From the NCBI GenBank assembly GCA_000091205.1, contig AP006487.2: a stretch of DNA of 64,000 nucleotides. One strand, given 5' to 3'. Below, piece after piece: positions 13,762 through 54,569 of this stretch. The stretch comes from Cyanidioschyzon merolae (lineage: Eukaryota). The notes under the pieces were generated by a model. That model was not told the origin of the DNA and did not search any database. It saw nothing but the letters and a program-made list of their open reading frames with translations. Position 1 is the first letter of the stretch, and each line of letters begins with the position of its first letter. The position numbers and the translations under genes were made by a program.

Positions 13762-13971
13762 AAACTTGCAGCGGAGTTTGCTTTAAGTCAGTTCCCCGAA
13801 AGGCGTCGTGCGCTTAACCTGTTGCACAGGCGCACGTGCCAGCACAAAGTGGCAGCGTTATGGATCGGCGCACACCTGCACATAGCAGCGTTCACGTTTG
13901 TACCCGTGGCTGTGCAGCCCAGTGTTGTTGCAGAGTCTGCGTCCAGGAGAGTGCAAGGAAGCGGCATGGAA

Positions 13972-15345: not shown

Positions 15346-15985
15346 CATGTTTCGTACGAGGCGCTCGCGAGGATCACCCGCGTGATACTGGGACGCGCTC
15401 GAATGCGTTGCACTCACAGAGCCTCAGTTCTCACTGGTCCCCGTGGGGCATCGTATTTGGGACGGCTTCTGCCGATGCATCATGAATCTAATCGATATAT
15501 GTGTATCTTCAGTCAGCGTGGTGATTGCATCTGTATCGCTCTGCGAGGTGTCTGGGCTCTCCGCGAATGCGTATGGTGCCCGCATCGAAAGTTTCGACAG
15601 ACGGGGTGCCAGTGGTAAAGTGAGGCTGTAACCAGGCTCTTGGAAAGACGCGTTTATCGAACAGCGCTCTGTTCATGATGTAGAACGTGTAAACACGAAG
15701 CTGCAGTCACGACATGTGCTCTGTGAAAAACAACGAGGGCCCAGGTATGCTCTGGGCCATCGCTTGGAGACAGGCTCCCTCATCCTCCATCTGTTTTGCA
15801 CAGGAGAGAGGCCGCATAGTCAAGAGATCAGCGGCCTGACATGTGTACGATGCAAAGGTAGCAGTCAGAGCCTTCTGATCCACCGGGTGTTTCCAGGACG
15901 CCCGGCGCTGCACCTACGGAGCTCGCGCTTGCGCTGGACTCTAGGGTTCAACACCCGTAGCGCTTGTCTGTTTGCGGTCGGTACT

Positions 15986-18984: not shown

Positions 18985-20270
18985 GCTGTTTGCAGTGGCT
19001 TGAACACTGGTCGAGCTGTCTATATCTGCTTCTACTTCCTATTCCTCTCTGTTCCCTCGGATGGAAACGCGCAGGTCTGTCGATTACGTCTAGCTCCGTT
19101 GCCAGCAGTCGAAACATGTTGGTGGCAGCCTTGCAGTCCTGATTTCGCCGCATTCGGCTCTTGTCAACACATCGCAGAGAAAGACAGTAGTTGCGGTCTA
19201 GATTTCGCTTTCCATGTTCATCTTCTTTGGACACAGCGAGGCGCTTCGCAAAAGGTGAAATTCGGCGACGCTCAGGTGCTCCAAGATGTCAAGCACACCG
19301 CTTTTGCCTACGAGGATCATCCCGTGGCGCGTGAACGCTTACTTCATCGCACGCTACATGCCCTTGACGGGAACTAGAGGCTCTACTCGATGCCTTGCTC
19401 CATTTCGGCGCCTGGTACCGCACCTTGGCATCACGGGCTTTTCCTGGGCGATCCCCTTGACGAGTACTCGGTTCGCTGCAGAAGGGATACGCCACTCTAC
19501 TCGATAGAGGATTTGTGGAACGCACTCATGTCTGTCAGAGCACAAGTACTGGAAGGAGAATCTAGGCTGCAGATCGCGTCGAGAAATTTCGATCGGTCTA
19601 TGCTGGCTTGTACACTGCGAGGACGCACGCTCTGCTGGAAGTGATCGCGGCAGTGATTGGATTCCAAATGCAAGACTCTTTGCCACGCAAACGGGCAAGA
19701 TGATAGCCGCTGTGAGCATATTCCGTGAGAGCTATCAAGCTGCAATGGAATCCCGTTTCGTTTACAGGCACGAACATGCAAGTATTCGTATTTCGAATGG
19801 AAACGATTACTGGATGTGACAAGTTCAAAGAACTTTCGGCATGCGCTTGTGAAGAATCCGTCAACGAACGTCGTCAGTTGCGTTACCTAGTCCATCCAGC
19901 GCTGCACATTGCTGCACCTTCGATTCGACTTGGAATCGAAAAATCGAATTCTTGGAGAATGCATGATTTGAGCTTGCTAAACGTCAGGAAAGGAGAACAT
20001 CGGAGGCCTGCACCCATATATTGGATCACGATATCGGTTAGGTAACGAACGCTAGTTCGAGGGCGTCGCCAATGGTCTTGACGCCGGTAACGTCACGAAC
20101 TCCAGTGGGAAAGCGTCGCAGGAGCCACTCCAATGAGACGACCGAAAATCCTCGTTCTACCCATGAATCCAGCATAGCTCTGCCATGCATTTCAATGTCG
20201 TAGCCGTGCAACTAAGAAAAGTTCCGGAAGAAAATCGAAAGGTAAAAATAGATGGACCCGTGCTGTTTTC
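18985..20270 (-). pseudogene. TnpB/Fanzor-like RuvC nuclease relic, family II copy 1 (TnpB-sized, ~1.2 kb, frameshifted)
   Basis: Minus-strand fragments in order: SLEWLLRRFPTGVRDVTGVKTIGDALELAFV; VNETGF; CALTDMSAFHKSSIE (RuvC-I-like, D codon 19532-19530); TEYS; HVACDEVS; LRCVDKSRMRRNQDCKAATNMF (RuvC-III-like, D codon 19138-19136). It aligns by eye with copies at 22.2-23.5 kb and 59.1-60.4 kb. Multiple stops and frame changes. Confidence 0.55.
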
Positions 20271-22229: not shown

Positions 22230-23465
22230 CGCAGCCTTTCTATTTTGGCAAAAATTGGTTTAGATATACAGCCCCGGCATTCGAAGTTTATCAGTATGGG
22301 CTAGCGGATCTACGGGTGGTATTCGGATTCTCGGTCACCTTTACGATGTGGCTCTTTCGACGCTTTGCCGCTGGAATTCGTATATTACCGGAACCGAAAT
22401 GATTCGCAATGGCATCGAATCATGATTCGAAAAATAATCGATGTCGTTCCCCAATTCCTATGTACAAGTCTCTGCACTTGTCTTTTGCTATGTGAAGCGT
22501 GCTCTTGTCACGCATTATGCCAAGTTTTCGAGCTTTCTGTTCCAAGGCGACTCGAGGGCACAGCAGTTTGCGCACCTGAATTCACGACGGAAAGAGAAAA
22601 CGACGTCGTCTCTCGACGGCTCTTTCGCAAGGCTCCTCGCGAACATTCACCCCACTGCTGACGTGAAATTATCGATTCCATGCGAACAACATATGCGTCT
22701 CTCTTGTGGCCGTCGACTAGACGAGATTCCACAACAGCTGGAGACCGCTCACGGGATATGCTTGCAGAGGCGCCCATCTCTTTTTTTTTTGCGTGGAGAA
22801 AGACCCCGGACTCCGACTTGAGACATTCCAGAGATCAGTACCAGTGGGGCGTGCGTCGCTGCTTTGCTTGAAGCAAGTGCAGACGAAGCGAAAGCTCTCG
22901 TCCTGGTCTCGAGCCTGCATTCGCTTTTTCATAATTGTTTCATCATGGTCAACATCGGATTCCACAACTCGTCTACAGAATGGAACAGCGTACGCTTGTT
23001 TGTACCGCGGACAGAGTACTCGCCAATGGTATCGCTCAGAAAAAGTTCATGATCGTTGTGCATTGCACTGGGCAGGAAACCGAGAAGAGCAGCGAGGCGA
23101 AACCTCTGCTCTCTGACCTGGATGTATCGGACGGTAAAGCAAGCATTTTCGCGCCACAATGCAGCACTCGTAGGGGAAAGCGTAGCGGACATGCGGGAAC
23201 ACCCGACCACAACCTCCGGTCACTGCGACGAACGGAGTACCAGGACTATTTCCAGAAGTGATGAACGCAGATGGCGACGCATCGTTCACAGATGCTTTGG
23301 GGTCATGAAATGCGTCAATCACAGCCGCAAGTGTCGAAATCGGTACTCGAACGCTGCCACCAAAATGCTTGGATCGCTGACAACGGACCTGGAAGCGCAG
23401 CAGAGAACCTACTAATCAATGCCGGATATGAAAGATGGGAAAAGCAAGCAGGCATAGAAAACGTT
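22230..23465 (+). pseudogene. TnpB/Fanzor-like RuvC nuclease relic, family II copy 2
   Basis: One frame from 22864 to 23415 is broken by a single stop (~23050). It reads CFIMVNIGFHN (RuvC-I position, N codon 22951-22953), TEYS, NAALVGES, GHCDERSTRT, then KCVNHSRKCRNRYSNAATKML (zinc-ribbon remnant plus RuvC-III position, Y codon 23344-23346). Upstream blocks (ggattctcgg.. at ~22325; RLDEIP) align with copies 1 and 3. Confidence 0.55.
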
Positions 23466-23659
23466 CGCAAAGGCCAATAAGGATGGTATGGAGAAGACAA
23501 CAGCATTTGAATATGTATGCCCGAGTTATAGGGCCCGTTCTGTTTTCTAGTCTTCCAACTCAATTGTGTTTCCCCTCAGATGCGGTGAATAGCAGGAGGT
23601 CGAAATCACGATGGCATGTGTTGTATAGCTTGCAGACGAGGTGACTGTAGGATATATTC

Positions 23660-24500
23660 GTTACTGAATAGTTCAGGGAGAACTGCATTCCTGCTTCGGG
23701 TGAATCATAACACTGTGCTCAGATATCTGAGGAACACTGAAAGAAACAGGTACATGCGTTCCGCGCCAAAACTGGCTCAGTGAAAAACTGCCCGCAATCA
23801 ATCGTATGAAACGGCTCTTTAATCGCCTTACGGAGAACAAAAGCGACGACAGTAGCTGCCAAGAGCGTCTACGTATCTGAATACCTCGTTGGTGCGGTCC
23901 TGAAAATACTTGGGTACAGTCGCATATAAAGTCCAATGTCATTCACGGCCATCTTCAACCGAAATGTCCATTACAGCATTCCAGGGAAGTCGCCATCCGT
24001 ATGAAGCACAGGGATGTGGGTTTGTTTTTCCAGTCGATGAAACTTCCTTCGAACAGAACGGTCAGAGCATGTATAGGTACCCGTGGAGACGGAGCCCGTT
24101 GTATGTGCGATCGAAATCGAAGCGAACTGAGACATCATCACCTGTTCTCGCTACAGTAGATACATTTGGCGGCCTTCGTTTCTCTCCTAGAGAAGGCTCA
24201 TGCAACAGCACCATGCATTTTGTCAAATCACTGAGGACTTTTCTCAGACGCCTGGCGACATCTTTCTATTGGACAACGAGGTATTTCATCTTTCCTCCTC
24301 CGTTCGAGATTTTGCCGATTCTATAGGGATAGGCTTGCTTCTCGTTCCGCCGTACGCTCCGTGATTCAAACCAATCGAACGGGTGTTTCCTATCGTGAAA
24401 CGTAATGATCGCTTCACAGAGCGACTCACTGAAGCGTTCAGCACACGGTGATTCCAGGGCAAATGCCGTCTTGCTTCCGCAAATCCTTCTCGCTCCGAGG
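23660..24500 (+). mobile_element. Tc1/mariner-superfamily (DD34E) transposase relic
   Basis: HTH-like VNHNTVLRYLRN (~23700-23740). First D in VFPVDETSF (gat 24036-24038). Second D in LLDNEVFH (gac 24272-24274). E in LLLVPPYAP*FKPIERVFPIVKR (gaa 24377-24379), 35 codons after D2. In-frame stop and frameshifts present. Confidence 0.6.
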
Positions 24501-24559
24501 GGGGTCCTCTGGCGAGAGCATAAAGGAGTAAGCTCATTTTAAAGAAATTAAGGGATGAG

Positions 24560-25215
24560 CCGGGATGTAAACTCCTGAAGGCCGAAATGGAGGAACGTCA
24601 GCGAAGCACTTCGGATATAGAAAAGCCCGGAGCGCTGTTCGAGCAGCAAATGGCACAGAGGGCACGAGTTCGAGGACTCCGTGCACTGGTGCGTTCAACG
24701 AGCTCCAACAAACGCATGGAGTTCGTGAACAGGGACGAAAACGCTGCTATCAATATCAGACGATTTGCGGTGCCAAAAACGGGACCCGATGAGCAGACCC
24801 GATCCAACGTTGTGGGGTCAGCGTCTCAAACTCGAATTGCATATGGATAAACAGAAACAGGTAGCAGCCGGCAGGCAGGCAGGCAGGCCGTGCAACACTG
24901 GAAGGCGGCAGCACGTCGGTATACATTGAGCGTAACGACGCGAAGCGTTTTCGCTCTGATAACCACATAGCCCAGTCGTCGTATGCTTTTTCTGAGAACC
25001 GTTTCTCGTGATAGTGAAACGCATCGCAGTGGTACTGGTTGCGAATACTTCGCCAGGAAGGGTTTAAAAATCTAGTGACAAGCTGGGGCGTCTCTCCACA
25101 CTCTTGAACGGACACCGGGGACGCCTCCAGTTGCAGCGCACAGTCGTATGAGCTGCTGCCGCGTCGCACTGTACTCTTAAACGGACACGTGGGACACCCT
25201 AAGTTGCAGATCGCG
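24560..25215 (+). pseudogene. TnpB/Fanzor-like relic, family I copy A (3' module plus non-coding tail)
   Basis: AQRARVRGLRALVRSTSSNKRMEFVNRDENAAINIRRFAV (D codon 24734-24736). It aligns at nucleotide level with the copies at 42.2, 48.7 and 54.8 kb. Downstream, ~24900-25215 shares diverged blocks with the tail of copy B (cgctct..catagcc; acggacacgtgg). Confidence 0.55.
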
Positions 25216-29444: not shown

Positions 29445-32400
29445 CGCCACAGGCAGTACAACCGAGCATTTTGCCAGCAGCACCGCGCATGAGACGCAAA
29501 TCTACAGTTGTTGTGGCTGCATTCCTGTGCAATGACGACGGTTCCTCAGTGTATCGATCTGGACCTGGAATGTACTACGAAATGCTGCAAGCATCGAAGC
29601 GATGCTGTGTCGATATGCACCGGTTCCCCGCTGTATTCATATGCTCGATTCGTGCGGGACACGTGGAGGCTTCGACTCTCTGCGCCACCCTGAACAGAGA
29701 GCGTGCCCGCTACCTATCGCTTGTTACTTGCTACCGGTCTGGTTGGAGCGCTTTCATTGATCTCCTGGGGAACGCAGGAAAAAAGACCAGTTCGAGTCTG
29801 GCAATTGGAAAAGCGTGCCCCAAGTTTGACGCCCGTCTGAAGCATGCCATCACATCCTACGTCGCTGCTAAGGTCGTTTTCCGAATAATTAATTTCAGTT
29901 GGGGCTGCGTCGCCAAGCCGCGGACCCCGGATTTTTACTACTGTATCCATAGCGAACAGCGTAGTGCACTCCACTATAGGAAAACGACGAGTTGAGAGTC
30001 TCCTTTGGCACCTTGCTGACTATGATTTGGATTGCGAACTCCATGTGGAGTCGGTGCTGATCCGTTTTGCGCCAAGGAACAGCAAGTGTTCCATCCTTTT
30101 CCATAAGTGCTGTGGTGCAACGAACCACTTCAGCGAGCTCGAGTTGTAGAATCTCTTCGACAGTCCCTGTATACAGAGCAACTGCCTCTACTGCGCCAGC
30201 AAATGCGCTGATTGCGACTACGCAAGCGGTTCCCTGCTGACCGCAACACTGTGCAAGCGATGCTCAAGATACCGAGCGGTGCTCGGTACGTCCAAGATTC
30301 ACAGCTCCCAAGCTGTCGATTTCGCTTCAGAAAGCTGATCAAGTGGATGCTCCGTACAGCTGCGATTCGTAATGCAAACAAAGCACCAGGATACGCCTCG
30401 AGCGACATTGACCACAGACAGCTTGTAAATATGTCGCGATCGAGTCTATACATCGACTTTAGGGCAATTTGGGTTGAACGTGGGCATATTGCGCCACCCT
30501 CTTGCGCATCTGAGAGCACACCAGCACCCCAAGCATTCGACGCATAGAGGAATAGATCGCAGGCGTCGGGATCAAGCCGTGCCGCTTCCGCATGTCCGGA
30601 ATTTTTGCCGGCGATTGGCCAGATGCACGCTGCTACTACTGGAGCCAGCGCCTGCAGTATCTTGAGTAATCGTCAATTCCTGAGATGTTTTTGGTTGCAA
30701 TCAGAGCAGCGAATGTCCGATTACCCGTACCAGCACGCTCTTTTGGTTATTGTTTGGTTTTCTTGCAGGTATTCGATAAAAAGAATGCATCGTGTCGATC
30801 CGATTACAGTCGCTGGATGAATTGGTATTGTCTGTGGTAGCTCGCGAAAAGAACGGCCCCACCTGTGCCTGTCCTTCTATAATGAACTGGGGCATGAACC
30901 GCTTTTCTCATCGCTCTGATCCGACACGTCAGTCTCCCGCAGTAGAACCCTCCAGAACCTCTCTTCGACTGTTTCCTTGCCGATTGATTGTGTAGCGTAC
31001 TTGGATGAAGAAATACTACCAAAGTCACCGCTGGATTTTGACGCCTCCGTACCGCTAATGACAACGGTGATGAAGAGACCCAGAAATACGAATCGAAAAG
31101 CACGCCTGTATGCTAGATAGTCACGCGTCGAAGAGCGCAAGACTGATCTCGTCGTGAAACGCGAGCGCTTATCACAGGACGAACGAGAGTTCATCTCGTG
31201 CAACGAAATGTCCTTCGGGGGAAATGGTACACCTGCACTTGGCTACGCAAACCGGAGCAAACCACTGTTCTGAAAGACGAGCGAAACGGGACGGACGACA
31301 ACACCAGCCCTAGCAGCGATTTAATCCCTTGATCACCGAATCGTCGCCGAACGGACAAGATCGTTCAACAACTCGTGCTTGGTCGACGTATTCTGTGGCT
31401 TCTTTTTTCCCATTTTGTTCCGTCCGGCTCGTAGGTATCATCGGATTGCGTCAATCAGGAGCGGTCAAGGACACCGCAGCTGGCATCGCAGTTGAGCTGG
31501 TCTCTGTGCTGGCTTGTTTTCTCTGGCTCAATCGAAACGAATTCGTTTTTCCAAGACATCCCAGAGCATTTCTATGTTCATCGATGATTAAACGAATCTT
31601 TCGCGTTCGCGACACCAAAATATGCTGCGTACTTTTACGGATCGCAACCCCCCTTCACCGCGCTCGTCTTGCCTGGCTTTTCTGTTTCCTGCCTCGACGC
31701 GTCTCCTCAACCGATTGTTCATACAAGTTTCGGAAGCGAGATCGCCAGTTGTCTACACTCCACTCGATTTTTCGATCAAACCTTCGCGCGACAACACGAC
31801 ACAAATGTTCAGAGCAGATGATGCGATTCGACGTGAGCGAGGCATCAGCGTTTTGCGCATATGCGTACCAGCATATCTTGCCGCGTCGCCGCGCCATCTC
31901 GACGATCGAAGTATGTGAGGTGCCGGTCCTAAAACGTACCAGGCAAACCTCAGAAAGCAACATCATGTCCGGGTTCAGTTCGGGCGCTTTATGAGGCGCG
32001 CATTGTCGACGTTTTCCAGTCATGGTACTGGCCCAGAAAAGTGGGCACTGTTTGAAGGTATGCTACCGTTCAGAGAGAACACGAGCGATCAAGCGGCGCA
32101 CGCGGACGATCGTTACGGGGCGTTCATACGAGCGCGCGGAGGTCACCAACAGTTTCGGTTGTACAGAAGCAAGAAGCGTACATGCACTCACTTCGACTAA
32201 GAGTTGTAAACGAAAATCTCCGATATGTCGTGTGGTTGGGTGCCAGGCAATGGCGCTGGAAGCACTGGAGCGCGCGATGACTGCACCCTTGCGGACTTGT
32301 GGACGGCGTCCAACGAGTGCGGGAATCGATTCCATACGACTCCCGTAGATGCATTCAGGACGATGCCCTCGCATCAATAGCATGGGTGCTCAATGAAACA

Positions 32401-33700
32401 GGCAGAGAAAAAGCACCTGAAACAGAGCCGGATACACGAGACGGTGTACGTCAGGCCGAGCGAACATCAGCTGGCGAGAATATTGACGACCAGAGGATTG
32501 CAAAAGCGAGATTTCAGGAGCAAAATACCTCGATGTACATCCGGGAATGTCCGGTGTTCGCACAGCGCCCAACAGCTTGGTGATCAACGAACCTTTGAGG
32601 GAATCGCGCAGTACTTCGTGTAAACACGGATCTGAAACGCTGAAGACTTGCGATGGAAAACAACAGTGACCATGACAGCGTGTATTTCATCCATGTTTGA
32701 AGCAAGACACTTGTATGAGACGGTTCAGCAGTCCAGAATGGCTGCCATGCCCCATATATACACATGGAACGGTTTTCCTAGAAATTCATGAACGAATATC
32801 CTGCTCCGTAATTCGACTTGACGATGTACCGACATGCAAAGCGGCGTCCTAGGTGCTCTAGCCTAGACGCCCGCCCCCGAAGACCTGCACGGTGTCGCCC
32901 TGCGAGCCTTATTTACCGCACCATACATCCCTGGGATATTTATGATGGCTCCGGCCTTGAAGATCACGCGTTTGTGTGTACGTCAGCAGCGTCGATGCGT
33001 CGCTCTAAAATCCATCTACACAGGTGTTCACGGAATGCTCGGCATTTAAAAGCGAGCCCGCTCAACTTCGTATACAATGTGTCATGCATGTAGACTTGCA
33101 TTTTCGAACGAGATCCGTCATTGGGGCACCAGCTCGAGACTGATCAAGCATCAAGCTTCGTGCACGGTAGACAGGCTGTGCTATGAACGGTTCGGCATTC
33201 GACGCCAGGCGCTGAACCCAGACTTGCGTCACCGTACAGTGCGTTTAGGGTTCCATCAGCAGTGCCTCGTTCTTTGCGTTCGTCCTGCAATTCTCCAGGT
33301 CATAGAAGCGTATCCGCAGCATGAAACTGTTCAGTGTGAGCCGAAGTAGCAACATCCAGCATAGGCATTGAAGCGCGTGTCCTATAGATTCCAAGTGCCT
33401 GTGAGCGCTCCCGCACCGGCGATGCACCTTCGTACGAGGACGCGCTCCATACCAAGTCAGCCGAAACATTTCCTATGAATCAAGTGAGGCAGAACTCGCG
33501 ATTTGTGCACTAATCCAGAAGCACGCTTTCGGGAAAGCTTAGCAACAGAATTCGGGCGATTATGTTTTGGTCTATGGTCGAGTCTTGGCTGGGAATCCCA
33601 GCTACGCAATGGATACCGACGTCAGGGAAAGCGCTAACGCATACTCGGCACTCTACGGATTATATGAACGAGCCGTTGCCTCCAACAGGGAATATGGATG

Positions 33701-34087
33701 TATCCGGCGAGATATAGAGACCTGGTGCGGAATGACTAGTGATTTCATAGGCACCGTTGAGGTAGTCGTCTGCAGGGAACTCCTGCTCGTGTCGCAGAAG
33801 CTGCGTTACCGCCACACCAGCATCGAGTGGTATCCGGCGAGATATAGAGACTTGGTGCGGAATGACTAGTGATTTCATAGGTACCGTTGAGGTAGTCGTC
33901 TGCAGGGAGCTCCTGCTCGTGTCGCAGAAGCTGCGTTACCGCCACACCAGCATCGAGTGGTATCCGGCGAGATATAGAGACTTGGTGCGGAATGACTAGT
34001 GATTTCATAGGTACCGTTGAGGTAGTCGTCTGCAGGGAACTCCTGCTCGTGTCGCAGAAGCTGCGTTACCGCCACACCAGCATCGAG
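33701..34087. repeat. 130-bp tandem repeat, ~3 units
   Basis: tatccggcgagatatagagac starts at 33701, 33831 and 33961. Units are >95% identical by eye. 130 is not a multiple of 3, so the repeated peptide in minus-strand ORFs (MKSLVIPHQVSISRRIPLDAGVAVTQLL..) shifts frame between units. Confidence 0.95.
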
Positions 34088-40277: not shown

Positions 40278-42009
40278 CCGCAGTCACCGAAAGCCTTCAC
40301 AAACGCAAGCACAATGCGGGCGCTGGAACGCACCACCGGAGGTGCTCAGCTTCCGGAGGATCCCGATACACGTCGCGATGGCGGACACGCGGGCATTCGA
40401 ACAGCGGCCGCCGTCGGCATCGCGCACACCCAGCGCACACACTGCAACGGCCGGGGTGCGGCGGCGCTCATCAGGGACGGATCAGCGCCGGCGTGCTGTC
40501 CTCCGGCGCGGGGCTGTCGACAGCCGTAGAGCGCCCGCCGTTCCCGCGGCTGGAGAGGCGGCGGCGCTCGCAGTTCCCGCTGCACCCTGGTGCGAGTCCG
40601 GGAGCCTGCACCTTCAGGTTGCAGCACTGAGGGCGGTGGGGATCGGCGTGGGCGCGCCCAGCTCCACAGCATGGCAGGTCTCTGCATGGAGTGCATTTGC
40701 ACAAGAAAGTCGCATCGAGGACTCTGCGTATCTGGACTGCATGTGCGCTTTGCCGATACACGTATACCAGAATAAGACGGAACAGGTCCACGCAGCGAAC
40801 ACGGGCGTGCCTAATAAAGTTTTGATCGCTTCCCGTAAGAGTCAACACAAGATTTTGTGCGTATTTTTGTGACTTGTTATTTTTATTGCTCTTTTTTTGC
40901 TGAATTTCAATGTGCTGGTCTCTAATGTGTCTGCAGCTCCGTTTGTCAGCAGTCGAAGAATGCTGATGGCAGCGTTCTCCTCCCGAGTTCGCAGCATTCG
41001 ATTCTCATTCACGCATTTCGAACAGGCAGGCTGAAGTTGCGATCTCGGCTGCGCTTGTCATGATCATATCCTTTGTAGACAGCCTCAGTGCGCCCTTTGC
41101 AGCATGAACCTTGGCCACGGTCAGTGATTACCGTACGTGCACGACACGACACCTCTTCCGAAAAATGCCCTGTGCCGCACCAAGGAATGCTTCGCTGATC
41201 GGTGTGCGCGTTTGACTGGTACAGAGGGCCCGATGTGTTCCCTGTATTCGTTTTCGCGCCCGGTGCCGTGTTCTCCGATCATGGGCTTGCTCATGGCGAT
41301 CCTTCCAGGGTGTACGCTATCCCCTGCACGCACACGCTGTAACATTGGATGGGCGATTTTTTTGGAACGCGATCTTGTTCATGATGGAGCGGTTGGCGGA
41401 AGGGAATTCCAGGATGGTGAGCAATAGAAAAAATTTAGAGTCGTTTATGTTCAGTTCCTAGAACGCAGTGACATACTCTCTACTCTGAGTAATCGCCGCA
41501 ATGACTGGTGTGCAGCACGAGTCGTTGCTTCCGCTGTGAGCGGCGAGGCTGGATATCGGCGTCATGGCTGGTGCCTGCTCGCAGACGGGTGCTGCGATGG
41601 TCACCTGGCACCGCTTATGGCACCCAGAGAACCGCTTCTGCTGCACGTTCGAACAGACGACGGAGCCAGCGGACCTCTGTGACGACCTCGAAAGCTAGCC
41701 AGGTATTCCAGCTCCTTTGGCGGTGTTCCGCGACGGTTTCATCTCGGCAATGATGCAGCGGATGCACCTCGAGGACAATGGAAACCTACGCTTATCGAAG
41801 TCTGAGCGCGTCTTGTCGCAACGAACTCCAGAGACTGGCATGTTTCGCGTCTCGCATGATACGCTGGCCTCGTTTTAATGTTGCACCTCATTTGTGTTCC
41901 GCTTGCAGGTGCGTGTCATCAAGTGCTTCCTCGCGGGTTATAGCGGACGTGTTCAAAGAGCGTCCATTTTCAAAAATAAACTATCCTAGGGAGATGTGTA
42001 TGTATGAAA

Positions 42010-42690
42010 ATCGGGGATCCTGATGTGCTAGTGTCGCCGGTTTCAACAGAAAAAACGAAAAATTCTCTTCTCACCGACCATCGAGCGAAGGAGAGCAAGT
42101 TTTATGAAAAAGTAGAAAAAGAGAGGAACGGCGGGTGAAAAGTTTTTGTATGCCTGATGTGACGATTACGAGACTGTAACGGGACAGAGGGCACACTGAC
42201 GAAGGCGCCTTGCATTGATGAGTCCCATCAGAGGCAGCAAACGCATGGAATTCGTGAACAGAGACTTGAACTCCGCCATCAAAATCAGACCATTTGTGTT
42301 ACAAAAGGCGAGGCGCGCGGAACTTACGTTAGCGAAAGGTTTGGGACAGCCTCTCAGGTTCGAAGTGTACACGGGACAAATTGAAACCGATATCTGGTTG
42401 CTGGTCAGAAAAAGGCTTCGAGGCGCCTGTGAGTGCGTATCATTTTCCCCTGTCGAGCCGACGCTCTCTGTGGTGCGGCATAGCCGTTCTGTCTCCGTGC
42501 AAGGACCGCATCGGCCCTGTAGACGCTATCGCCGACGCTCTGGGCATGCACTCGGCGCACGATAGAACGTACGGAACGACCATTATATCCGAGAGAAAGT
42601 ATGGGTTACGGAACGTGGAAGTAAGGCGTGGAATGAGGGATACCTTACAGCGCGCTGATGACGAGCGCAGAATCCGAGAACGCTCGCCAC
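42010..42690 (+). pseudogene. TnpB/Fanzor-like relic, family I copy B (5'-truncated, plus tail forming the left palindrome arm)
   Basis: SKRMEFVNRDLNSAIKIR (D codon 42263-42265). Upstream, ..ccatcgagcgaagg.. aligns with copies C and D. Downstream conserved block LVRKRLRGACECV. The tail from ~42452 is the left arm of the palindrome. Confidence 0.5.
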
Positions 42691-42987
42691 AGCAACCACT
42701 TTGGCATTTTTTCACTGACAAAACGTTTACTTAGGCCAGCGTTCTCCGATTATGCGCTTTTTTCTTTTCTTTCTTTTTTTTCAGTGCGAGGTGAGGTATC
42801 CATCAACCCCCTACCTCCATGTTACATTACCTATACTTCGTCTCGGATATTCTGGTCGTTTCATACGTCCTATCGTGTGTGCCTAGTACCTGCCGTTCCG
42901 TATTCGCGTCTGCGCTTGAACCGCTGGAGCAGATAGCTCATAGGGCTAAAACAGCTTTTCTATACCACAGAGGGCGTCGGCTCGAGG
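42452..42987. repeat. Large imperfect palindrome (inverted duplication): arms ~42452-42688 and ~42734-42987, 45-bp centre
   Basis: The reverse complement of 42795-42878 matches 42558-42644 (cacgatag.acgta..gaacgacca..atatccgaga..aagtat.ggt...gggatacc). It extends inward (gcgcagaatccgagaacgctcgcc 42665-42688 vs revcomp of 42734-42757) and outward (ctgtcgagccgacgctctctgtggt ~42450-42474 vs revcomp of 42961-42987). It also shows as YFLSDIMVVPYVLSC / YFVSDILVVSYVLSC in opposite-strand ORFs. Confidence 0.85.
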
Positions 42988-42989
42988 TG

Positions 42990-45900
42990 TGCTTCATCCG
43001 ACGTAGAATCGGGTCTCGTCGTCAGTTTGTGCTCGTACAGTCTGCGGATGCAGGCTTGCCTTCGCTGCACGACACGCTGGAGAAACTTGGTTGTTAGGAT
43101 GAATTCTGGGAGCTGCCTCTCTCCTTCGTGATCATGCATGGAATGCATTGTTGTCGGTTGGCTATGCGGATTTGTGCTTGACACCCACTACAGAAGGAAG
43201 GCGTAGAGAGCACTAAACCCGTGTGCGCATCCGATCCGCTGGACCTTCCGCCTAGAAGGTAGCACGTGAGTTTGTTGGCCACTAATGAGCACTGAGGATC
43301 TGTTAGCGAACCATCAGTTGCCAGTGCTGCACTCAGAGTGAGTGTCCGGCCTTCGACTATCACGGTGTTGCCGAGCTGCTGCTGTCCTTCGAGGAGCTCG
43401 CTGCGCTCCTGCTTCTAGCGCGGCCACTGTAGGCCTAAATATGTCAGCGTCTCGGGGATTTCGTCTCGATAGCAGGTACAGTGTGACTCCCAGTGCGATT
43501 CCAGGGTTCCTATCCGGCTTAGAGCCGGTGCTGGTAGCCAGGAGCCACCAACGCTGATTTTGGCGAGCCACTGGGTACCTCGAGCAAGTCCCGGGAATTC
43601 CAGCGCCTCCCACCAGTAATTGCATGTGTATGCTAGGTTGTAGTTCCGGTATAGAGTCAAGCCGGCGTTACTCGCGCGACTGGTACTGTATCTACGTTCC
43701 CATATTGTTGTTCGGACCGTTCGCTTGAGGCGACGGGAGAATTCTATATTCCTGGGGAATGATTGGGTAGCGTGTTTTCGCCTAAGAGGCGCTTCAGCCA
43801 AATCTGCGCTGATTTCATCCAAGTGATCTTGCGGTGCGTTGGGGTCTGCATGGATATCCGACTGAACCAGGTGTTCATGGTTGGCCCTTTGCCCCATATG
43901 CGTGCCCGGCAGCCTGCTGCTATCGCCTCTGTCGAGGGTATTTGGAGTTCAAGTCCGAGTGCCAGCAGGTTGGTTGCTCTGCTCTGCATTGAGCATCCAA
44001 CTACAACGAGTCGCATTGCCCTGTTGGCGGCTGTCTGCAGACGCGAGGCATTTGTGTGCTTCATGCCGCACCATTCAGCACCACAGGTCGCAGGCTGGAT
44101 GATACATATCCTTAGTGCGCTGGTACGGATTGCTAAGGGGATAGAGGGGTCGGATAAGAATGGGCATGCGATCGCTGTACGTCTATGCATCTTGGCGATC
44201 ATCTCGTTAACGTGTGCCTTTTCGTCGAGCGTCGGCGTGAGACAGACCCTAGGTAGCGATATTTTTCCACGATTGGAATTTCCTGATTCTGCAACCGCCA
44301 CGAGCGATTGCGAATGCTCTGCGAGTCTCCATGGATGGCCATGACGCCGCACTTCGATGCTCCTATGCTCATCTCCCAGCGATCGGCCCAGGCGCTGACT
44401 TGTTCCATGCTAGCCGCAAGCGTTTCCGGGGCGGGTGCCAACAGCACGACATCGTCCGCAAATAGAAGGCCTGCGAGGCGGTTCCCATATGGGCGCTCCC
44501 CATCGGGCATCTCCACAGTCTATCCACGGCACCTCAAGCCCGTATTGTCTGTAGTTGTTAAGCAGATCGTTGATGAAGATGTTGAAAAGGAGCGGGGATG
44601 CAGGATCGCCCTGTCGCAGTCCACGGCGGATTCTTATCGAAGGGGTTCTTGAGCCGTCGCCTAGTCGGATGCGCATCCACGAGTCTGCATAGAGCGCACG
44701 GAAGAACGCTAAGCACTTTGCGGAGACTCCGGCTCGTTCCATCTTCATAAATGGAGCCTCATGCGGGAACGTGTCAAAGGCCTTTTGGAAGTCGACGAAG
44801 CATACGTAAGTTGGTTGTTGGTCGCTAATGAAGCGACGTTGCACCACTTCAATGAGGGTCAGGGCATGGTTCATGCACTCCTCGTGGCTCCGGAATCCAG
44901 CCTGTTCTGGGGCGAAGAACTTGCGTTCCTGGAGGCCGCTGTGGATACGGTTCGTGAGCATGGCGCGAAGTAGCTTCATGATTGACGGGATGAGGCGCAT
45001 AGTCCGGTAGATGTTCATGTCTGTGTGTGTGTGGGAGTCCTTTTTGAGGATCGGTACGACCTCGACAGCCCTCCGTACATCTGGGATGTACGCTTCTTCA
45101 AACATGCGTTGAATGAGCTCCAGAAGGCGTTTGCCTAAGATTGTGTCAGGTTCATCTGGTATCGATGGTGTCCCTGTTGTCCCGTCTTTTGGGGTCGCCA
45201 GTTTCATCCACTCCGCAGGGATACCGTCGATGCCAGGTGTTTTGCGATTGCTTGAGCATAGCAGAGTCCGAACAGATTCAGGCCAGAAAATTGGGTCGTT
45301 CCATTCCGGTACCGGGTCGAGGCGCGGTAGTTCTGCAGCATATCGGTGCCAATAGATTCGGTCTTAGCAGTGCCCAGTTGCGTCTTCATGTAATTCTGTG
45401 CCGTGGTCCGTCCAGGCCTCATTCACTGAGGCACGCTCCGTCCTCAGCGCTTCCTTTTAACAGTTGGTGTGAGCCCCAAGCACTTTCTTGGTGGGTCCAG
45501 TCTCGATCGGATGTAGCCTGGGGTTTCATCTTCGTTGGTGCTCTTCAGCATAGATTCCGCCAGGGAGGCCATTTTGCGGTTTCGATCCTCTCGTTTGTCT
45601 TCTCTGGAAAGTTTCTTCGTTCTTTTGATAGCTTCCTCATGTTGCGCCTGTAGCGCCGGTAGCGCTGCCTTCGCTTCCTTGTCTCCGGCGTTGGCGCGTA
45701 TGGCGGTGCGGTTGACAATCTTGTTGAGTCGGTGGCATTCATGAATCCGAGTTTTGGTACGTCGTTTGAGGTACTGCGGCTTGCTACTGTTGTGTTCAGG
45801 TGCAAGCAGTCCCAATTTTCTGGCAATCTTCTGATTCCCATCTACAAACTCGCGTGCCAATTGGTCTGAAGATTTGTATTCACGGCTTTTCGGATCTTCA

Positions 45901-46950
45901 GCGCTGTGAGCAGGTGCCTGGGATTGGCGACGGCTTTCTTGAGTTCCAGCTGGGGTGCCCTTTCGGGGGATACCTTGTGATGGGCTCGTTTGGGAGTTCT
46001 TCTTTCTATTCTTCTGTTTTTTCTTGCTGGTCTACTTCTTCTTCGGGCTCTTTCCTGAGCTGCTTTCTCTGGTTATTTTGCATTTAAGGGGATCATGAGG
46101 TTTCTGTGTCTCTTTCTCCGTACCTCGTTGGGTCTCTTTTCCAATTGTAGAGTCCTCGACTTGTATCAGTTCTTCATTACTGTACTGGTAATTCGATATC
46201 TCGTGGTTAAATACCGAGGCGATCCCGCTAATATTCCATGATGCGAAACCTATCGAGTCGTAGCGCATAAGGGAATAGGAGTAACGCTGCGGTACTCCAG
46301 AGATACGTTGTCGATTTAGACGCAGCTTCCACAGGGTGTGTGAGAGCACATGCCACCATTGCCTCCTGCATTCCAGTCGTTCACTGAGTGTCTGCCGCAG
46401 CGCTAGCGTAGAATCAGATGTACATTAGTCAAGGTCGATTCGAATGCGAACTTTGTCTTTCCGGACGCGTGAAGCTACCCTCAACCATTGGGAAAAGTCT
46501 GCAAACCACCATTTCAGCGGCTTTGTATCCGCTCCCCAAACACATAGGCGGGCAAGTCGCTTATTCCACTTTCGACAGTGAGCATACTGCCAGCTGTCTT
46601 CCAAAGTATCCGCCGAGATTGTTTCCAAAGTTGAGGTAGGTACTCAAGGTAGAAGGTGAAACTGAGCCCGAATTCAGGGATGGATCCAGTATTTGTGCCC
46701 GAACCTGCAGCGTTGTTTCGGGAGCAGCGGATGACTGCGCTCAGAATTATCGTCATCATTCTCTGCTACTGCCTACGCCCCTCCGTTCGTTGCGGTCAAG
46801 GCCCCTGGCGTGGACTTCCTTCGCAGTCGCTCAAGCACCCCGCGTTAACCCACTTTCAGAGGTTCTCCGGAAAGACTAGACCCCTTAGGCGGACGTGGTT
46901 TGTGGGGCTTTTAAGATAGTGGTTCCTTGATAAATAGTTTGCGACTAGTT
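42990..46950 (-). mobile_element. Non-LTR (LINE-type) retrotransposon relic: APE-like endonuclease plus reverse transcriptase, multiply frameshifted
   Basis: RT blocks on the minus strand: PGIDGIPAEWMKL, NIYR.., FDTFPHE, RRGLRQGDPASPLLFNIFINDL, GLLFADDVVLLA (D codon 44456-44454), YLG, PATCGAEWCG. C-terminal Cys motif: CTCYRDEIPETLTYLGLQWPR. Endonuclease-like fragments at 46.0-46.9 kb (FYLEYLPQLWKQSRRILW, VWGADTKP, NHEISNYQ). The 3' limit is uncertain. Confidence 0.8.
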
Positions 46951-47159
46951 TGCATCGCGCTCGGTGAGCGCACCTCGGAGATCGGGCAGGCATGAGACGC
47001 TACGCGCATGCCACTGTTGAAGGGAAACACGTGACCTTGATCAATAGCGTGTTGTTCTGCTGTAAAAGTCGGATTCCCGTTGAGGGCGTAGCAAAGTATA
47101 GTTTTCAGTTCATTTCTGTTTCAACCCTCAAGTAAAAATACTCGAGTGTTTTTTCGCAG

Positions 47160-47167
47160 TATATAAG
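47160..47167 (+). promoter_or_regulatory. TATA-like box (TATATAAG) ~210 bp upstream of the family I copy C start codon
   Basis: Direct reading, inside an A/T-rich block (47100-47340) that is unusual for this window. No functional evidence. Confidence 0.2.
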
Positions 47168-47376
47168 AGAAGCGTTCAAAGAGCATTCTTTTTAAAAAAA
47201 CTAAAAAAAGGAAAAGTATGTAGGAGCAAGTCCACGATCCTGGAGGCCCACTGTCGCAGGCTGCCAGAAAGAAAACAAAAAACAGTGCCGAGTCCAGAAG
47301 AACAGGGAGAGAGAAGAAGAACCGAAGAGGGGAGGCCCTACGTCGAAGGTGGCAAGAAAGACGACTGTACAACGAG

Positions 47377-48980
47377 ATGGTGGTGAAAGCCTTTCTTCTT
47401 GGACATATCAAGGATCCCTACAGGGAAAAGTTGCGAGACGCTATCGAAAAACGTGTCGACTCGTATTCCGAGAGTATTATCAAGGCGTCGTCAGGGCTGA
47501 TGCATTTGGCGAGGGAGATGTATCGCGACATGGCGCACATGGAAACAGTCGAGATTCCGGACGAGTTTCTCGACATGACCTTTATTTGTCAGCTAATGCT
47601 TGGTACAGCGGAAACGCGGAAGGAAAATGTGCTAGTGCACGCCCTCCACGAAGAACATACCTTTTACAGCTTCAATGGTACTCGATACAAGGTGACGGAG
47701 ATATTTACATCTATGGGGCGATGAAGTACCTCACGAATCTGAAGAACCATTTGACAATGAACCTCGAACGTTTCACGGTACGCGCCGTGTGTGCACTCTA
47801 CCCGGGCCTATCTCGCAAAGGAAAATGGGCGATTATCAATGGCATCACGAAAGATCGTAAGCATGAAGATGAGACGGATTTCGTTGACAAGAAGGCGTCA
47901 AACGAGAGCACGAATGAAGCTTCTGTAATCCGTGCTGCTATTCAAGAGCACCGTGCAATCCTGGGACTGGATTATCCAGCAGAAAAGATATCAGAGTTGA
48001 AAAAAGATAAGGAAACATACGATCGCCTCATTCTACGGTATTTCGTGTTTCTGGACCAAGAACTCGAACGCGAGGCGGAGATGAAGGTGAATAGGGGAAA
48101 AATGAAGAGTGGGAGAGACGGAAGGCTGTCCTAACGGGGAAGCGCTTCAACGTGGTTCCATTGTGCAACATCAAGTCAGATTTTGTGACCATCGGCTCCG
48201 GCGTCCTTTACGGCATCATGAAGCAGATCAGTCCGGAGTTCAGTGTCAGCAGGGAGGACTTCACCGGCGAAAACCGGGAGACGTACTGCAAGAGTATCTT
48301 CGATTTCAAACGTCTGAGAGTGAGCAAGCAAAAGTTGTTTACTGGGATGATCGTAACCGATGGAGTAGAATTGTGTGCAAACTATCGGCGGTTGAAGAGA
48401 GATCGGCCAGTCCCTCCCTCGGCTGCGCCCGTGACGAAGGATCAAGAAAACAAAGAGGTGTATCCTGCGACGCAGGAGGTGGAGGATAGAGACCTTGTCG
48501 TTGACGTGACCAAGGATGAAGAAAGGGAGGAGGCGGATCTTGCGACGCAGGAGGTGCAGGATTACGACCTTGTCGTAGGCGTGGACCCTGGGAATACGAA
48601 TGTCCTAACCATCGCAGCACCGAAGCGTGCGGAAGATGGAAAAGTGCCAGCGGAATCCTGAAGATATACAAAAGTACGGACCGCTGACGGAAGGGCGAAT
48701 GGAAAGGAGAGCGAAAGTTCGAGGATTGCTTGCATCAGTAAGTACAACCAGTGATGGCAAGAAACGGATGGAGTTTGTGAAGCGAGGTTTTAATGCCGCA
48801 ATCAATCTACGGAGATGTGCGGTGCTAGAGAATAAACCTCCAGACTGGACAAGAAGGAACCTTGTTGGACAATCTCTCAAAGGTGAACTATATGAGAGAA
48901 AGCTGGAAGCAGTAGTGGGTAGCCAGTCCAAAAAGACGGGGGGGGGGCGTCTGCACGTCAGCTGGAGACGATTTGTCTAA
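47377..48980 (+). pseudogene. TnpB/Fanzor-like gene, family I copy C: longest copy, N-terminal ~400 codons retained, three frame changes and an internal deletion of the RuvC-II/zinc-finger segment
   Basis: Four consecutive ORFs in frames 1,0,2,0: 47377-47724, ~47700-48134, 48152-48661, 48627-48980. RuvC-I-like [17 protein letters not shown] (gac 48584-48586). RuvC-III position KRMEFVKRGFNAAINLRR (G instead of D, ~48786) lies only ~67 codons later. A 60-bp internal duplication gives [14 protein letters not shown] / [15 protein letters not shown]10 homopolymer at 48938-48947. Confidence 0.6.
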
Positions 48981-49117
48981 GGCGCGTTCGCCGCCATTGC
49001 TGCGTACTGCCGGCGTCGTTCGACTTCGAACGGCGTTCGTGACCGAAGCTCATCCGCGGATCCAGCTGCACGCCGCTGCTTCATTCAGGACGCGTTGTAT
49101 AACAACGTCAGGGAACC

Positions 49118-54350: not shown

Positions 54351-54569
54351 AGGTAGTGCAAAGAACACACCGTACCGGTAAGTCGCGCGTGCCGTGGAGG
54401 CGAACGCTGTCGTTCATTCGGCAGCGCTCGAGGCTGGCACCGACTTGCCCGACTAGATGCACTACTTTTTGCTCTTTGACCACAGTGAGATTGATTAGTC
54501 AGGTGTGTGTCATCAAATGCCTTATTCGGTTTATAGCAGATGGGCTGCAAAGTGCGTTCATTTAGAGAA

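What the first reader, a model, noticed from the sequence alone, without database searches (positions are those of the whole stretch)
24560..25215. Family I copies share a conserved 3' module plus ~300-bp non-coding tail: candidate guide-RNA (omega/fRNA) scaffold region
Copies A (24560-25215), B (42010-42690), C (48560-48980) and D (54570-55060) align at nucleotide level. The alignment runs from just upstream of the QRARVRGL block, through the RuvC-III motif, to a conserved basic block: LVRKRLRGAC, RKRLGGVCAW or SKKTGGGRLH. In A, B and partly D, homology continues past the ORF. Shared blocks there are cgctct(c)tg..catagcc, gatag..gaacg and acgga(a/c)(a)cgtgg. In characterised TnpB and Fanzor systems the guide RNA scaffold is transcribed from the 3' end of the gene and the adjacent transposon end. 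Preferential survival of exactly this part in four copies is therefore worth testing. Copy C lacks the tail and ends 138 bp before the RPL37 ATG.
Basis: inference. Interest (0 to 1): 0.7.

Follow-up and report, generated by a model that had tools for sequence, protein, structure and literature searches.

The report
Decayed Fanzor copies; shared tail not real
The four segments are broken copies of a known red-alga Fanzor transposon family that share only the end of the nuclease gene. The proposed common 300-bp guide-RNA tail does not exist, although the family's true 100-nt right end, kept only in copy C, does look like a guide-RNA scaffold.

Summary
The window is Cyanidioschyzon merolae 10D, chromosome 5. 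Copies A-D are pseudogenised, internally deleted relics of the Fanzor1 family CMe-1. This family is already described (Nozaki 2007; Bao & Jurka 2013).

Confirmed: all four align at nucleotide level over the last ~280-400 bp of the Fanzor gene, from RuvC-III to the C-terminal basic block.

Not confirmed: the shared ~300-bp tail.
- Tail-versus-tail alignments score no better than shuffles.
- The A and D tails are unique flank.

Thirty-six paralogous loci place the family's right end 57-65 nt past the stop codon. In the A-type subfamily it lies about 30 nt past the stop.

The last 104 nt form three stems. The terminal hairpin shows compensatory changes and a 4:1 excess of G.U over A.C, so folding is specific to the sense strand. 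This is a plausible omega-RNA scaffold, like the 75-nt SpuFz1 one. In the window only copy C (48942-49044) keeps it.

B and D share one deletion junction, so they descend from a short non-autonomous derivative.

Side observation: LINE pieces are fused exactly at Fanzor element ends.

Verdict: a new member of a known kind, of modest interest.

The parts
24555..24958 (+). Copy A: the 3' remnant of a Fanzor1 (CMe-1 family) gene. It is frameshifted and keeps RuvC-III (NRDENAAINI). It ends with the A-type right end ...ACGTCGGTA..GCGAAGCGTTTTCGCTCTG.
   Evidence: nhmmer E 1.4e-48, profile positions 2087-2442. 3'-end profile positions 5-288. Homology with L025 and L027 ends at about 24956-24960.
23551..24482 (+). 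Degenerate Tc1/mariner/IS630-like DDE transposase pseudogene directly upstream of copy A. Paralogues L017 and L025 have the same arrangement.
   Evidence: blastn: 23592-24482 = L017 1069-1962 (69.5% over 906 bp, E 8e-95); 23551-24186 = L025 1507-2140. The translation shows ...IFLLDNEVFHLSSSVRDFADSIGIGLLLVPPYAP.FKPIERVF.... The family assignment rests on motif resemblance recalled from knowledge; no Pfam hit was obtained.
24959..25215 (+). The 'tail' of A. It is unique spacer upstream of the PRP43-like helicase gene (ATG 25277) and is not part of the element. It contains a local 55-nt imperfect direct repeat (25082-25136 / 25155-25209).
   Evidence: No hit in B, D or 36 paralogous loci. RNA fold z = -0.73. 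Direct repeat. The motif TTRAACGGACAC occurs only at these two places.
41905..42452 (+). Copy B: a short internally deleted derivative, made of the 5' UTR piece (41905-42099) plus the 3' gene end (42147-42452). It lacks the last part of the right end.
   Evidence: nhmmer profile positions 142-326 and 2182-2466. Collinear with D across the deletion junction.
42453..42711 (+). The 'tail' of B: a 5'-truncated fragment of the LINE / TE-N2_CMe 3' end. It lies tail-to-tail with the LINE on the minus strand.
   Evidence: nhmmer with the LINE 3'UTR profile, E 3e-31, and with the TE-N2-like profile, E 6e-38. Inverted repeat 42543-42894.
42703..46951 (-). Degenerate non-LTR retrotransposon (LINE) of about 4.2 kb. 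Its 5' side abuts the left end of copy C.
   Evidence: RT motifs (FVDFQKAFD, RGLRQGDPASPLLF, FADD) in ORF 44410-45207(-) and 44199-44516(-). C-terminal Cys/His motif in ORF 43415-43897(-). 42707-43965 = L002 4402-5667 at 89.5%.
46952..49044 (+). Copy C: the longest CMe-1 Fanzor copy. It has three frameshifts and an internal deletion (profile ~1601 to 2117, i.e. P0001 residues ~502-675) that removes RuvC-II and the Zn-finger region. The RuvC-III Asp is replaced (KRGFNAAINL).
   Evidence: nhmmer 46957-48509 plus 48634-49045. tblastn with P0001. ORFs.
48942..49044 (+). Right-end structured module of copy C (stems S1, S2, linker, terminal hairpin S3). This is the candidate omega-RNA scaffold and the only intact one in the window.
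   Evidence: Covariance model R1: 93.9 bits, E about 1e-20, and the only significant hit in the window. Family covariation. The homology boundary at 49034-49048 agrees across more than 20 loci.
49045..49064 (+). Predicted guide segment if copy C's module is transcribed as an omega-RNA. It is the first ~15-20 nt of flank, GAAGCTCATCCGCGGATCCA, and lies 54-73 nt upstream of the RPL37 ATG.
   Evidence: Inference only, by analogy with SpuFz1, whose guide is the 14-15 nt beyond the conserved scaffold (PMC10432273).
54500..55026 (+). Copy D: a short internally deleted derivative of the same type as B (5' UTR piece 54500-54693 plus 3' gene end 54720-55026). It is followed by unique sequence.
   Evidence: nhmmer profile positions 168-359 and 2164-2440. 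B-D alignment with shared junction; homology ends at 55026. Tail comparison at chance level.

Best explanation
A, B, C and D are dead relics of the Cyanidioschyzon merolae Fanzor1 transposon family CMe-1/CMe-1A.

What the copies are:
- Each lost most of the gene by internal deletion and kept the 3' end.
- B, C and D also kept the 5' UTR part.
- B and D descend from a single ~550-bp deletion derivative that was itself copied.

What they share is gene sequence: from upstream of RuvC-III to the C-terminal basic tail, read in different frames because of indels.

The sequences after that are unrelated:
- A is followed by the spacer in front of the PRP43-like helicase gene.
- B is followed by a LINE 3'-end fragment.
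- D is followed by unique DNA.

In intact family members the element ends 57-65 nt after the stop codon. The last ~104 nt fold on the sense strand into two short stems, a conserved linker (CCACTACTGTACAC) and a 10-19-bp terminal hairpin that stops at the boundary.

Most likely mechanism (inferred): this module is the scaffold of the family's omega-RNA. A transcript running through it into the flank would supply a 15-20-nt guide. The guide would direct Fanzor protein made by intact copies elsewhere in the genome.

In this window only copy C still has the scaffold. No copy can make the nuclease.
For: Shown by tool results or papers:
- Organism and family. Exact protein matches to C. merolae 10D on a 528,682-bp contig, which is chromosome 5 (PMC1955436). 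The family is described as 253 copies of ~3.2 kb with a WSV486-like ORF that are transcribed, and as CMe-1A, ~3 kb, no TIR or TSD, with the 5' 635 bp equal to TE-N2_CMe (PMC3627910).
- Fanzor1 membership. A profile of 31 diverse homologues hits solved Fanzor1 structures: PpFz1 E 3e-16, SpuFz1 E 4e-10, GtFz1 E 5e-4. The D-E-D residues of RuvC I, II and III are invariant.
- Copy anatomy. Shared B/D junction.
- No tail homology. B's tail is LINE.
- Right-end position.
- Structure. The covariance model hits every canonical right end. 85% of cells are paired against 76% in shuffles. 17 pairs carry double changes. 0 of 500 shuffles reach the observed values. Covariation score is 0.266 against at most 0.142 for slid partners. 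15 of 19 pairs in the terminal hairpin are compensatory.
- Strand specificity: G.U 97 against A.C 22.
- Folding stability: mean z = -2.8 for the hairpin region against about +0.4 for three of four coding control windows.

Against: - No RNA data were available, so transcription, processing and the guide are unproven.
- The alignment used for pair counts was fitted to the model. Four of its 20 rows (L010, L011, L021, L023) are forced onto alternative small hairpins, which inflates some counts.
- Paralogues share ancestry, so the shuffle control is not a probability.
- RNAalifold on plain MAFFT alignments did not recover the terminal hairpin and gave almost no covariation term.
- Single-sequence folding of copy C's module is not unusually stable (z = -0.01).
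- Third-codon positions in the last 300 nt of the ORF are not clearly more conserved than elsewhere, so a long scaffold overlapping the gene is not supported.
- A-type copies (A, L025, L027) end differently, with only one small hairpin.
Confidence: 0.7

Rival explanations
1. A ~300-bp non-coding tail shared by A, B and partly D, together with the 3' gene module, is the omega/guide-RNA scaffold, and selection for it explains why these parts survive.
For: Short matching words occur in the A and B tails. The 3' module is present in all four copies. Three independent deletions (A; C; B/D) have their 3' break points within about 100 bp of each other, at profile positions 2087-2182.
Against: Tail alignments are at chance level and blastn finds no tail hits. 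B's tail is LINE 3' end. None of 36 paralogous loci carries the A or D tail. Family homology stops at most 65 nt after the stop codon. The A tail does not fold unusually. The right-end covariance model finds nothing in A, B or D.
Confidence: 0.03
2. The conserved terminal hairpin is a DNA-level cis element for transposition, not an RNA. It would be a single-strand hairpin recognised by the still unknown transposase or replicase, as in IS200/IS605 ends or the Helitron 3' hairpin.
For: The hairpin sits at the very end of the element and the family has no TIRs or TSDs (PMC3627910). Compensatory changes and strand-specific G.T pairs would also be expected for a top-strand ssDNA hairpin. Bao & Jurka describe terminal hairpins with compensatory changes in Fanzor-carrying Helitron2 elements.
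Against: By inspection, no matching hairpin or asymmetric inverted repeat was seen at the left end, and the ends are not 5'-TC / CTRR-3'. No Rep/Hel or Y1 transposase is associated with the family in the loci examined. Stems S1 and S2 and the conserved linker upstream of the hairpin look more like an RNA scaffold. The two roles are not mutually exclusive: in IS200/IS605 the same right end serves both (established knowledge).
Confidence: 0.2
3. The 3' modules carry no current function. Their presence in all four copies is neutral decay of an abundant old family plus small-sample chance. The right-end stems are a 3' UTR or mRNA-end element of the Fanzor gene.
For: All four copies are pseudogenes. 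There are only three independent deletion events. Codon-position periodicity persists through the 3' module, so protein constraint explains most of the sequence conservation. The family is about 80% identical to its consensus, so it is old.
Against: The B/D derivative was copied after the deletion, so the retained ends were sufficient for propagation. Covariation and the G.U bias in the tail argue for selection on pairing. Conservation stops exactly at the hairpin's 3' arm.
Confidence: 0.15

Closest known systems
CMe-1 / CMe-1A Fanzor1 elements of Cyanidioschyzon merolae (Bao & Jurka 2013, PMC3627910). [quoted passage not shown] 2007 (PMC1955436).
   Same: Same organism. Same size, about 3 kb, with a ~650-bp 5' block (TE-N2_CMe). 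No TIRs or TSDs. Copies are about 80% identical. The ORF is Fanzor1-like.
   Different: Nothing contradicts membership; A-D are degraded members. Three things are not in those papers: the exact right end with its three-stem module, the identification of TE-N2-like sequence as a LINE 3' end, and the sub-type preceded by a mariner-like transposase.
SpuFz1 omega-RNA and 'ghost' loci of Spizellomyces punctatus (Saito et al. 2023, PMC10432273); Fanzor1 omega-RNA structures (Xu et al. 2024, PMC11423790).
   Same: [quoted passage not shown] Short non-autonomous derivatives that keep the ends are comparable to B and D.
   Different: SpuFz1 elements have 30-nt inverted repeats, whereas CMe-1 has none. 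Here the first stem overlaps the last codons. B and D have lost the terminal part of the module, whereas ghost loci keep the omega-RNA. No RNA-seq or biochemistry exists for the C. merolae family.
TnpB right-end (omega/re) RNA of IS200/IS605 elements (established knowledge: Altae-Tran 2021; Karvelis 2021).
   Same: The guide RNA is encoded at the 3' end of the nuclease gene plus the transposon right end. There are no TIRs, and there is a subterminal or terminal hairpin.
   Different: In bacterial elements the scaffold overlaps 100-150 nt of the ORF. Here there is no clear excess synonymous constraint in the ORF. No TnpA-type transposase is present.
[quoted passage not shown] 2023, PMC10530073).
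   Same: In these loci the Fanzor left end is fused to LINE sequence. The A-type copies are preceded by a Tc1/mariner-like transposase.
   Different: Clade assignment was not tested here. The paper reports a statistical association, not the nucleotide-exact junctions seen here.

Membership tests
Fanzor1 (eukaryotic TnpB-like RNA-guided nuclease) | Sequence homology to characterised Fanzor1 proteins | tested here: met
   A profile of 31 homologues hits PDB PpFz1 (9cf0, E 2.7e-16), SpuFz1 (8gkh, E 4e-10) and GtFz1 (9cer, E 4.5e-4). The narrow family profile alone gave no hit. Pfam gave only a weak precomputed DUF8286 hit.
Fanzor1 (eukaryotic TnpB-like RNA-guided nuclease) | Split RuvC catalytic triad D-E-D (GxDPG, DEFRT, NRDxNAAxNI) | tested here: met
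   Met in the full-length paralogues: D484, E656 and D725 are invariant in alignment A11. Not met in the window copies: A, B and D keep only RuvC-III. C keeps RuvC-I, lacks RuvC-II and has Gly in place of the RuvC-III Asp.
Fanzor1 (eukaryotic TnpB-like RNA-guided nuclease) | TnpB/Cas12-like fold | tested here: inconclusive
   The AlphaFold2 model from a shallow alignment had mean pLDDT 31.5 and was unusable. No fold search was run.
Fanzor1 (eukaryotic TnpB-like RNA-guided nuclease) | RNA-guided DNA cleavage | not testable with these tools
   Needs biochemistry.
omega-RNA (OMEGA guide RNA) | Encoded at the 3' end of the nuclease gene and the adjacent transposon right end, ending at the element boundary | tested here: met
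   Met for the family and for copy C: the 104-nt module ends at the homology boundary. Not met for the claimed tails of A, B and D.
omega-RNA (OMEGA guide RNA) | Conserved secondary structure supported by covariation | tested here: met
   17 of 33 pairs have double changes. 0 of 500 shuffles reach the observed values and slid controls are lower. G.U to A.C ratio is 97:22. Caveats: the alignment was fitted to the model, the sequences are related, and RNAalifold on MAFFT alignments was negative.
omega-RNA (OMEGA guide RNA) | Discrete transcript whose variable 3' part (the guide) comes from the flank | not testable with these tools
   No RNA-seq was available. Nozaki 2007 states only that the repeat family is transcribed.
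Non-LTR retrotransposon (LINE) 3' end, for the tail of B | Homology to the 3' UTR or 3' end of an RT-encoding element, also present away from the nuclease module | tested here: met
   42453-42711 matches the LINE 3'UTR profile (E 3e-31) and the TE-N2-like profile (E 6e-38). The source LINE has RT motifs. Copies also occur apart from Fanzor 3' ends, e.g. L016 4303-4593 and L015 4616-4889. TE-N2_CMe has ~70 genomic copies.
Non-autonomous 'ghost'-type derivative, for B and D | Short element that keeps both ends of the autonomous element and has been copied | tested here: met
   B and D are collinear over about 550 bp, including the same deletion junction, and have unrelated flanks. However, both lack the first ~140-170 bp and the last ~60-80 bp of the canonical element, so 'both ends' is only partly true.

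The most novel reading that the evidence does not exclude
CMe-1 Fanzor elements may be physically and mechanistically coupled to the C. merolae LINE.

Every left end examined is fused at the same nucleotide to LINE sequence. There are 10 distinct loci. The fused pieces are a shared ~650-bp piece, a 1.27-kb piece, a 4.2-kb piece, and a LINE 3' end in the opposite orientation. Copy B's right end is fused to a LINE fragment as well.

Two readings remain open:
- The element ends are recurrent break sites, from excision or from Fanzor cleavage, that capture LINE cDNA. This would be a footprint of in-vivo nuclease activity.
- The Fanzor unit is propagated by LINE reverse transcription through the TE-N2 tail. 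This would be an OMEGA nuclease hitch-hiking on a retrotransposon.
Probability: 0.15. Interest if true: 0.75.

Novelty: new member of a known kind. Interest (0 to 1): 0.3.

Why it matters
C. merolae is a genetically tractable model alga with a complete 16.5-Mb genome. This one Fanzor family makes up about 5% of that genome and is reported to be transcribed.

A defined right end and a 104-nt candidate scaffold make it possible to test directly, with small-RNA sequencing and one intact copy, whether this abundant family is an active RNA-guided system.

For the scan itself, the main result is corrective. The proposed 300-bp guide-RNA tail is a mixture of frameshifted coding sequence, unique flank and a LINE 3' end.

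Tried and rejected
- Pfam scan of the window ORFs and of full-length homologues gave no family.
- PDB search with the narrow family profile gave no hit. It succeeded only after the profile was broadened with distant representatives.
- AlphaFold2 on the shallow alignment gave pLDDT 31.5, so it was unusable and no fold search was run.
- RNAalifold on MAFFT alignments of the last 395 or 111 nt gave little covariation, and indels hid the terminal hairpin. It was replaced by a hand-specified structure and a covariance model.
- tRNA and Rfam searches of the window, and a permissive Rfam search of copy C's end, found nothing.
- Search for TIRs between the left and right ends of A-type elements found only 7-10-nt chance words.
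- Search for TSDs around composite elements found none.
- Search for an empty site upstream of the helicase gene in related strains failed: ten metagenome loci were retrieved, the six compared are ~99% identical to the window and all contain copy A, and the other four have the same gene layout.
- Test for excess synonymous-site conservation in the 3' ORF gave no clear signal.
- The idea that the A tail is a diverged LINE 3' UTR was rejected: the profiles do not hit it.
- The idea that the A tail's repeated TTRAACGGACAC motif is a common promoter element was rejected: it occurs only at those two sites in the window.

Full report
**Source and context.** Three intronless ORFs of the window are identical to Cyanidioschyzon merolae 10D proteins: RPL37 BAM79382.1, PAK kinase BAM79380.1 and PRP43-like helicase BAM79376.1. 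They lie on a 528,682-bp contig, which is the length of chromosome 5 (PMC1955436). Nozaki et al. 2007 report 253 copies of a ~3.2-kb interspersed repeat in this genome. It has a truncated ORF related to WSSV WSV486, makes up ~5% of the genome and is transcribed. The same genome has only 26 non-LTR retrotransposons and 8 class II elements. Bao & Jurka 2013 classified the repeat as the Fanzor1 family CMe-1/CMe-1A. They describe it as ~3 kb, ~80% identical to consensus, with no TIRs or TSDs, and with a 5' 635 bp equal to another repeat, TE-N2_CMe.

**Check of the observation.**
- blastn confirms that A, B, C and D are homologous, but only inside the coding 3' module (A 24614-24872 and its partners).
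- A stitched translation of copy C finds 100 homologues, including full-length proteins of 550-750 aa.
- A metagenome scan plus two look-ups gave 36 loci. Because near-identical C. merolae contigs occur in the same samples, these loci are probably genomic paralogues of the same or closely related strains (inference).
- An nhmmer profile of the full-length element maps the window copies as follows:
  - A = 24555-24920 (profile 2087-2442).
  - B = 41877-42067 (profile 142-326) plus 42179-42457.
  - C = 46957-48509 plus 48634-49045, with profile ~1601-2117 deleted.
  - D = 54496-54696 (profile 168-359) plus 54735-55008.
- The tails beyond these limits do not resemble each other. All twelve pairwise comparisons among the A, B and D tails and the sequence flanking C, in both orientations, fall within the shuffle distribution.

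**What the tails are.**
- B's tail (42453-42711) is a 5'-truncated LINE 3' end (E 3e-31 and 6e-38). It lies tail-to-tail with a ~4.2-kb degenerate LINE on the minus strand (42703-46951), which has RT motifs. The three 'shared blocks' in B lie inside this fragment.
- The LINE profiles do not hit the tails of A or D.
- A's tail is the spacer in front of the helicase gene. It has a local 55-nt direct repeat, no unusual folding (z = -0.73) and no counterpart in any paralogous locus.
- Sequence past the degraded ORF stops in A, B and D is frameshifted coding sequence. The three 'basic block' peptides are one nucleotide block read in three frames.

**Where the element really ends.**
- Paralogues lose similarity to each other, and to copy C, at window 49034-49048. 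That is 57-65 nt after the stop codon (C: stop 48978-48980).
- A sub-type comprising A, L025 and L027 diverges after GCACGTCGGT. It ends about 40 nt later with the hairpin GCGAA(A/G)CGTTTTCGC (A at about 24958).
- B and D are collinear over ~550 bp, including the same deletion junction, with unrelated flanks. Their homology ends at B 42452 and D 55026. They therefore descend from one short derivative that was copied after the deletion.
- A is preceded by a degenerate Tc1/mariner/IS630-like transposase ORF (23551-24482). L017 and L025 have the same ORF directly upstream of their Fanzor genes.

**Test of the guide-RNA idea at the true right end.**
- Every paralogue folds its last 45-55 nt into a hairpin whose arms differ in sequence between copies.
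- I specified three stems on a seven-sequence alignment: S1 over the last codons, S2, a conserved linker CCACTACTGTACAC, and the terminal hairpin S3. From this I built covariance model R1.
- R1 finds all canonical right ends in the loci (E 1e-8 to 1e-27). In the window it finds only copy C (48942-49044, E about 1e-20). Nothing appears at A, B or D, even with filters off.
- On the 20-sequence alignment:
  - 85% of cells pair, against 76% in shuffles.
  - 17 of 33 pairs show double substitutions.
  - No shuffle out of 500 reaches the observed values.
  - Sliding the partners gives a covariation score of at most 0.142, against 0.266 observed.
  - 15 of the 19 S3 pairs show compensatory changes.
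- G.U pairs outnumber A.C mismatches 97 to 22. The pairing is therefore specific to the Fanzor sense strand.
- Mean folding z-score of the S3 region is -2.8, against about +0.4 in three of four coding control windows. The fourth control window, in the RuvC-III coding region, also folds stably (mean z -2.5) but hardly varies, so it gives no covariation information.
- Caveats:
  - The alignment was fitted to the model, and four of its rows are forced.
  - The paralogues are related, so the shuffle control overstates significance.
  - Plain RNAalifold was negative.
  - Copy C's own module is not unusually stable.
  - Synonymous sites in the 3' ORF are not clearly over-conserved.

**Comparison with known systems.**
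- A broadened protein profile hits the solved Fanzor1 structures of Parasitella, Spizellomyces and Guillardia. The RuvC D-E-D residues are invariant in 31 diverse homologues. Family membership is therefore met for the intact paralogues.
- None of the window copies can encode an active nuclease.
[quoted passage not shown] The 14-15-nt guide comes from the flank, and non-autonomous 'ghost' loci retain the scaffold (PMC10432273).
- Other Fanzor1 omega-RNAs have one to three stem-loops between SL1 and the guide (PMC11423790).
- The CMe-1 right-end module has the same position, size and general build. No omega-RNA for this family was found in the paper library or in Rfam.

**Mechanism and verdict.**
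- Shown:
  - The identity of the copies and their deletion anatomy.
  - The absence of a shared tail, and the LINE nature of B's tail.
  - The exact right end.
  - A conserved, sense-strand-specific three-stem module that only copy C retains.
- Inferred: the module is the omega-RNA scaffold, with the guide read from the flank (49045 onward for C) and used in trans by Fanzor protein from intact copies.
- Main rival: a single-strand DNA hairpin used in transposition. The two roles could coexist.
Its general premise survives at a different place.

**Side observation.** LINE sequence is joined to the Fanzor left end at the same nucleotide (CGCGGTCGATAAGCGCACC...) in all 10 distinct loci where that end is visible. 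The break points on the LINE side vary, and both orientations occur. The shared ~650-bp piece, which is TE-N2_CMe, is homologous to the LINE's last ~540 bp. At B, the LINE fragment starts exactly where B-D homology ends. Jiang et al. 2023 note that clade Fanzor1c associates with LINE and Mariner/Tc1 elements. I could not explain the exact junctions.

Noticed in passing
window 42453-46956; loci L001 4338-4998, L002 4402-5675, L012 985-1431, L006 1277-1723, L020 743-1390, L030 1240-1927, L034 1339-1990, L023 2779-3438, L010 224-858: LINE sequence is fused to the Fanzor left end at the same nucleotide in every locus where that end is visible. The break points on the LINE side vary (0.65, 1.27 and 4.2 kb) and both orientations occur. 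At copy B, a LINE fragment starts exactly at the right end (42452|42453). Only two LINE pieces, lying tail-to-tail, separate B from C.
   Followed up: partly
loci L001 4338-4997, L020 743-1389 and others; window 42714-43262: The ~650-bp 5' block of CMe-1A (TE-N2_CMe of Bao & Jurka, class unknown) is homologous to the last ~540 bp of the C. merolae LINE. It lies antisense to Fanzor and ends in the LINE terminus ...AAACGTTTTGTC followed by an A-rich run. It therefore looks like a 5'-truncated or SINE-like LINE derivative.
   Followed up: partly
window 23551-24482 (+); L017 1069-1962; L025 1507-2140: A degenerate Tc1/mariner/IS630-like DDE transposase ORF lies directly upstream of the Fanzor part in copy A and in two paralogues. 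This points to a mariner-associated sub-type of the family. No TIRs were found.
   Followed up: partly
window copies A (from 24555), C (from 48634), B (from ~42147), D (from ~54720): Three independent internal deletions (A; C; B/D) have their 3' break points within about 100 bp of each other on the consensus (profile 2087-2182). This may mark a minimal retained 3' region or a deletion hot spot. The sample is too small to tell.
   Followed up: partly
window 48794-48842 (copy C); columns 122-170 of alignment A2: Two stable hairpins (GCCGC..GCGGTG and CTGGAG..CTCCAG) lie inside the RuvC-III coding region. They are conserved in the canonical paralogues analysed (mean z -2.5). They vary almost not at all, so covariation cannot be judged. 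They could belong to a longer scaffold.
   Followed up: partly
window 48430-48583; L002 7146-7450; L012 2902-3427: A 75-bp tandem repeat lies inside the Fanzor ORF (peptide unit ..QEVxDNDLVVDAxKHEExK..). Its copy number differs between paralogues.
   Followed up: no
window 25082-25136 and 25155-25209: An imperfect 55-nt direct repeat (75% identical, core TTRAACGGACAC..GTTGCAG) lies 70-190 bp upstream of the PRP43-like helicase ATG. It is unique to this spot in the window and may be a promoter element.
   Followed up: partly
window 31868-32604 (+): A fifth, much more diverged Fanzor-like remnant is present (tblastn with P0001, about 28% identity, E 1e-8 to 1e-10).
   Followed up: no
window 19089-19655 vs 22824-23393; also 40819-41083, 60258-60415, 4809-4897: A long inverted repeat (arms of about 570 bp, 73-76% complementary, about 3.2 kb apart) has related short pieces elsewhere in the window. 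This is another repeat family, possibly the ends of the mariner-like element.
   Followed up: no
window 13966-15352 and 33700-34087: Two tandem repeat arrays are present, with a period of about 77 bp (about 18 copies, 96-97% identical) and about 130 bp (3 copies, 98% identical).
   Followed up: no
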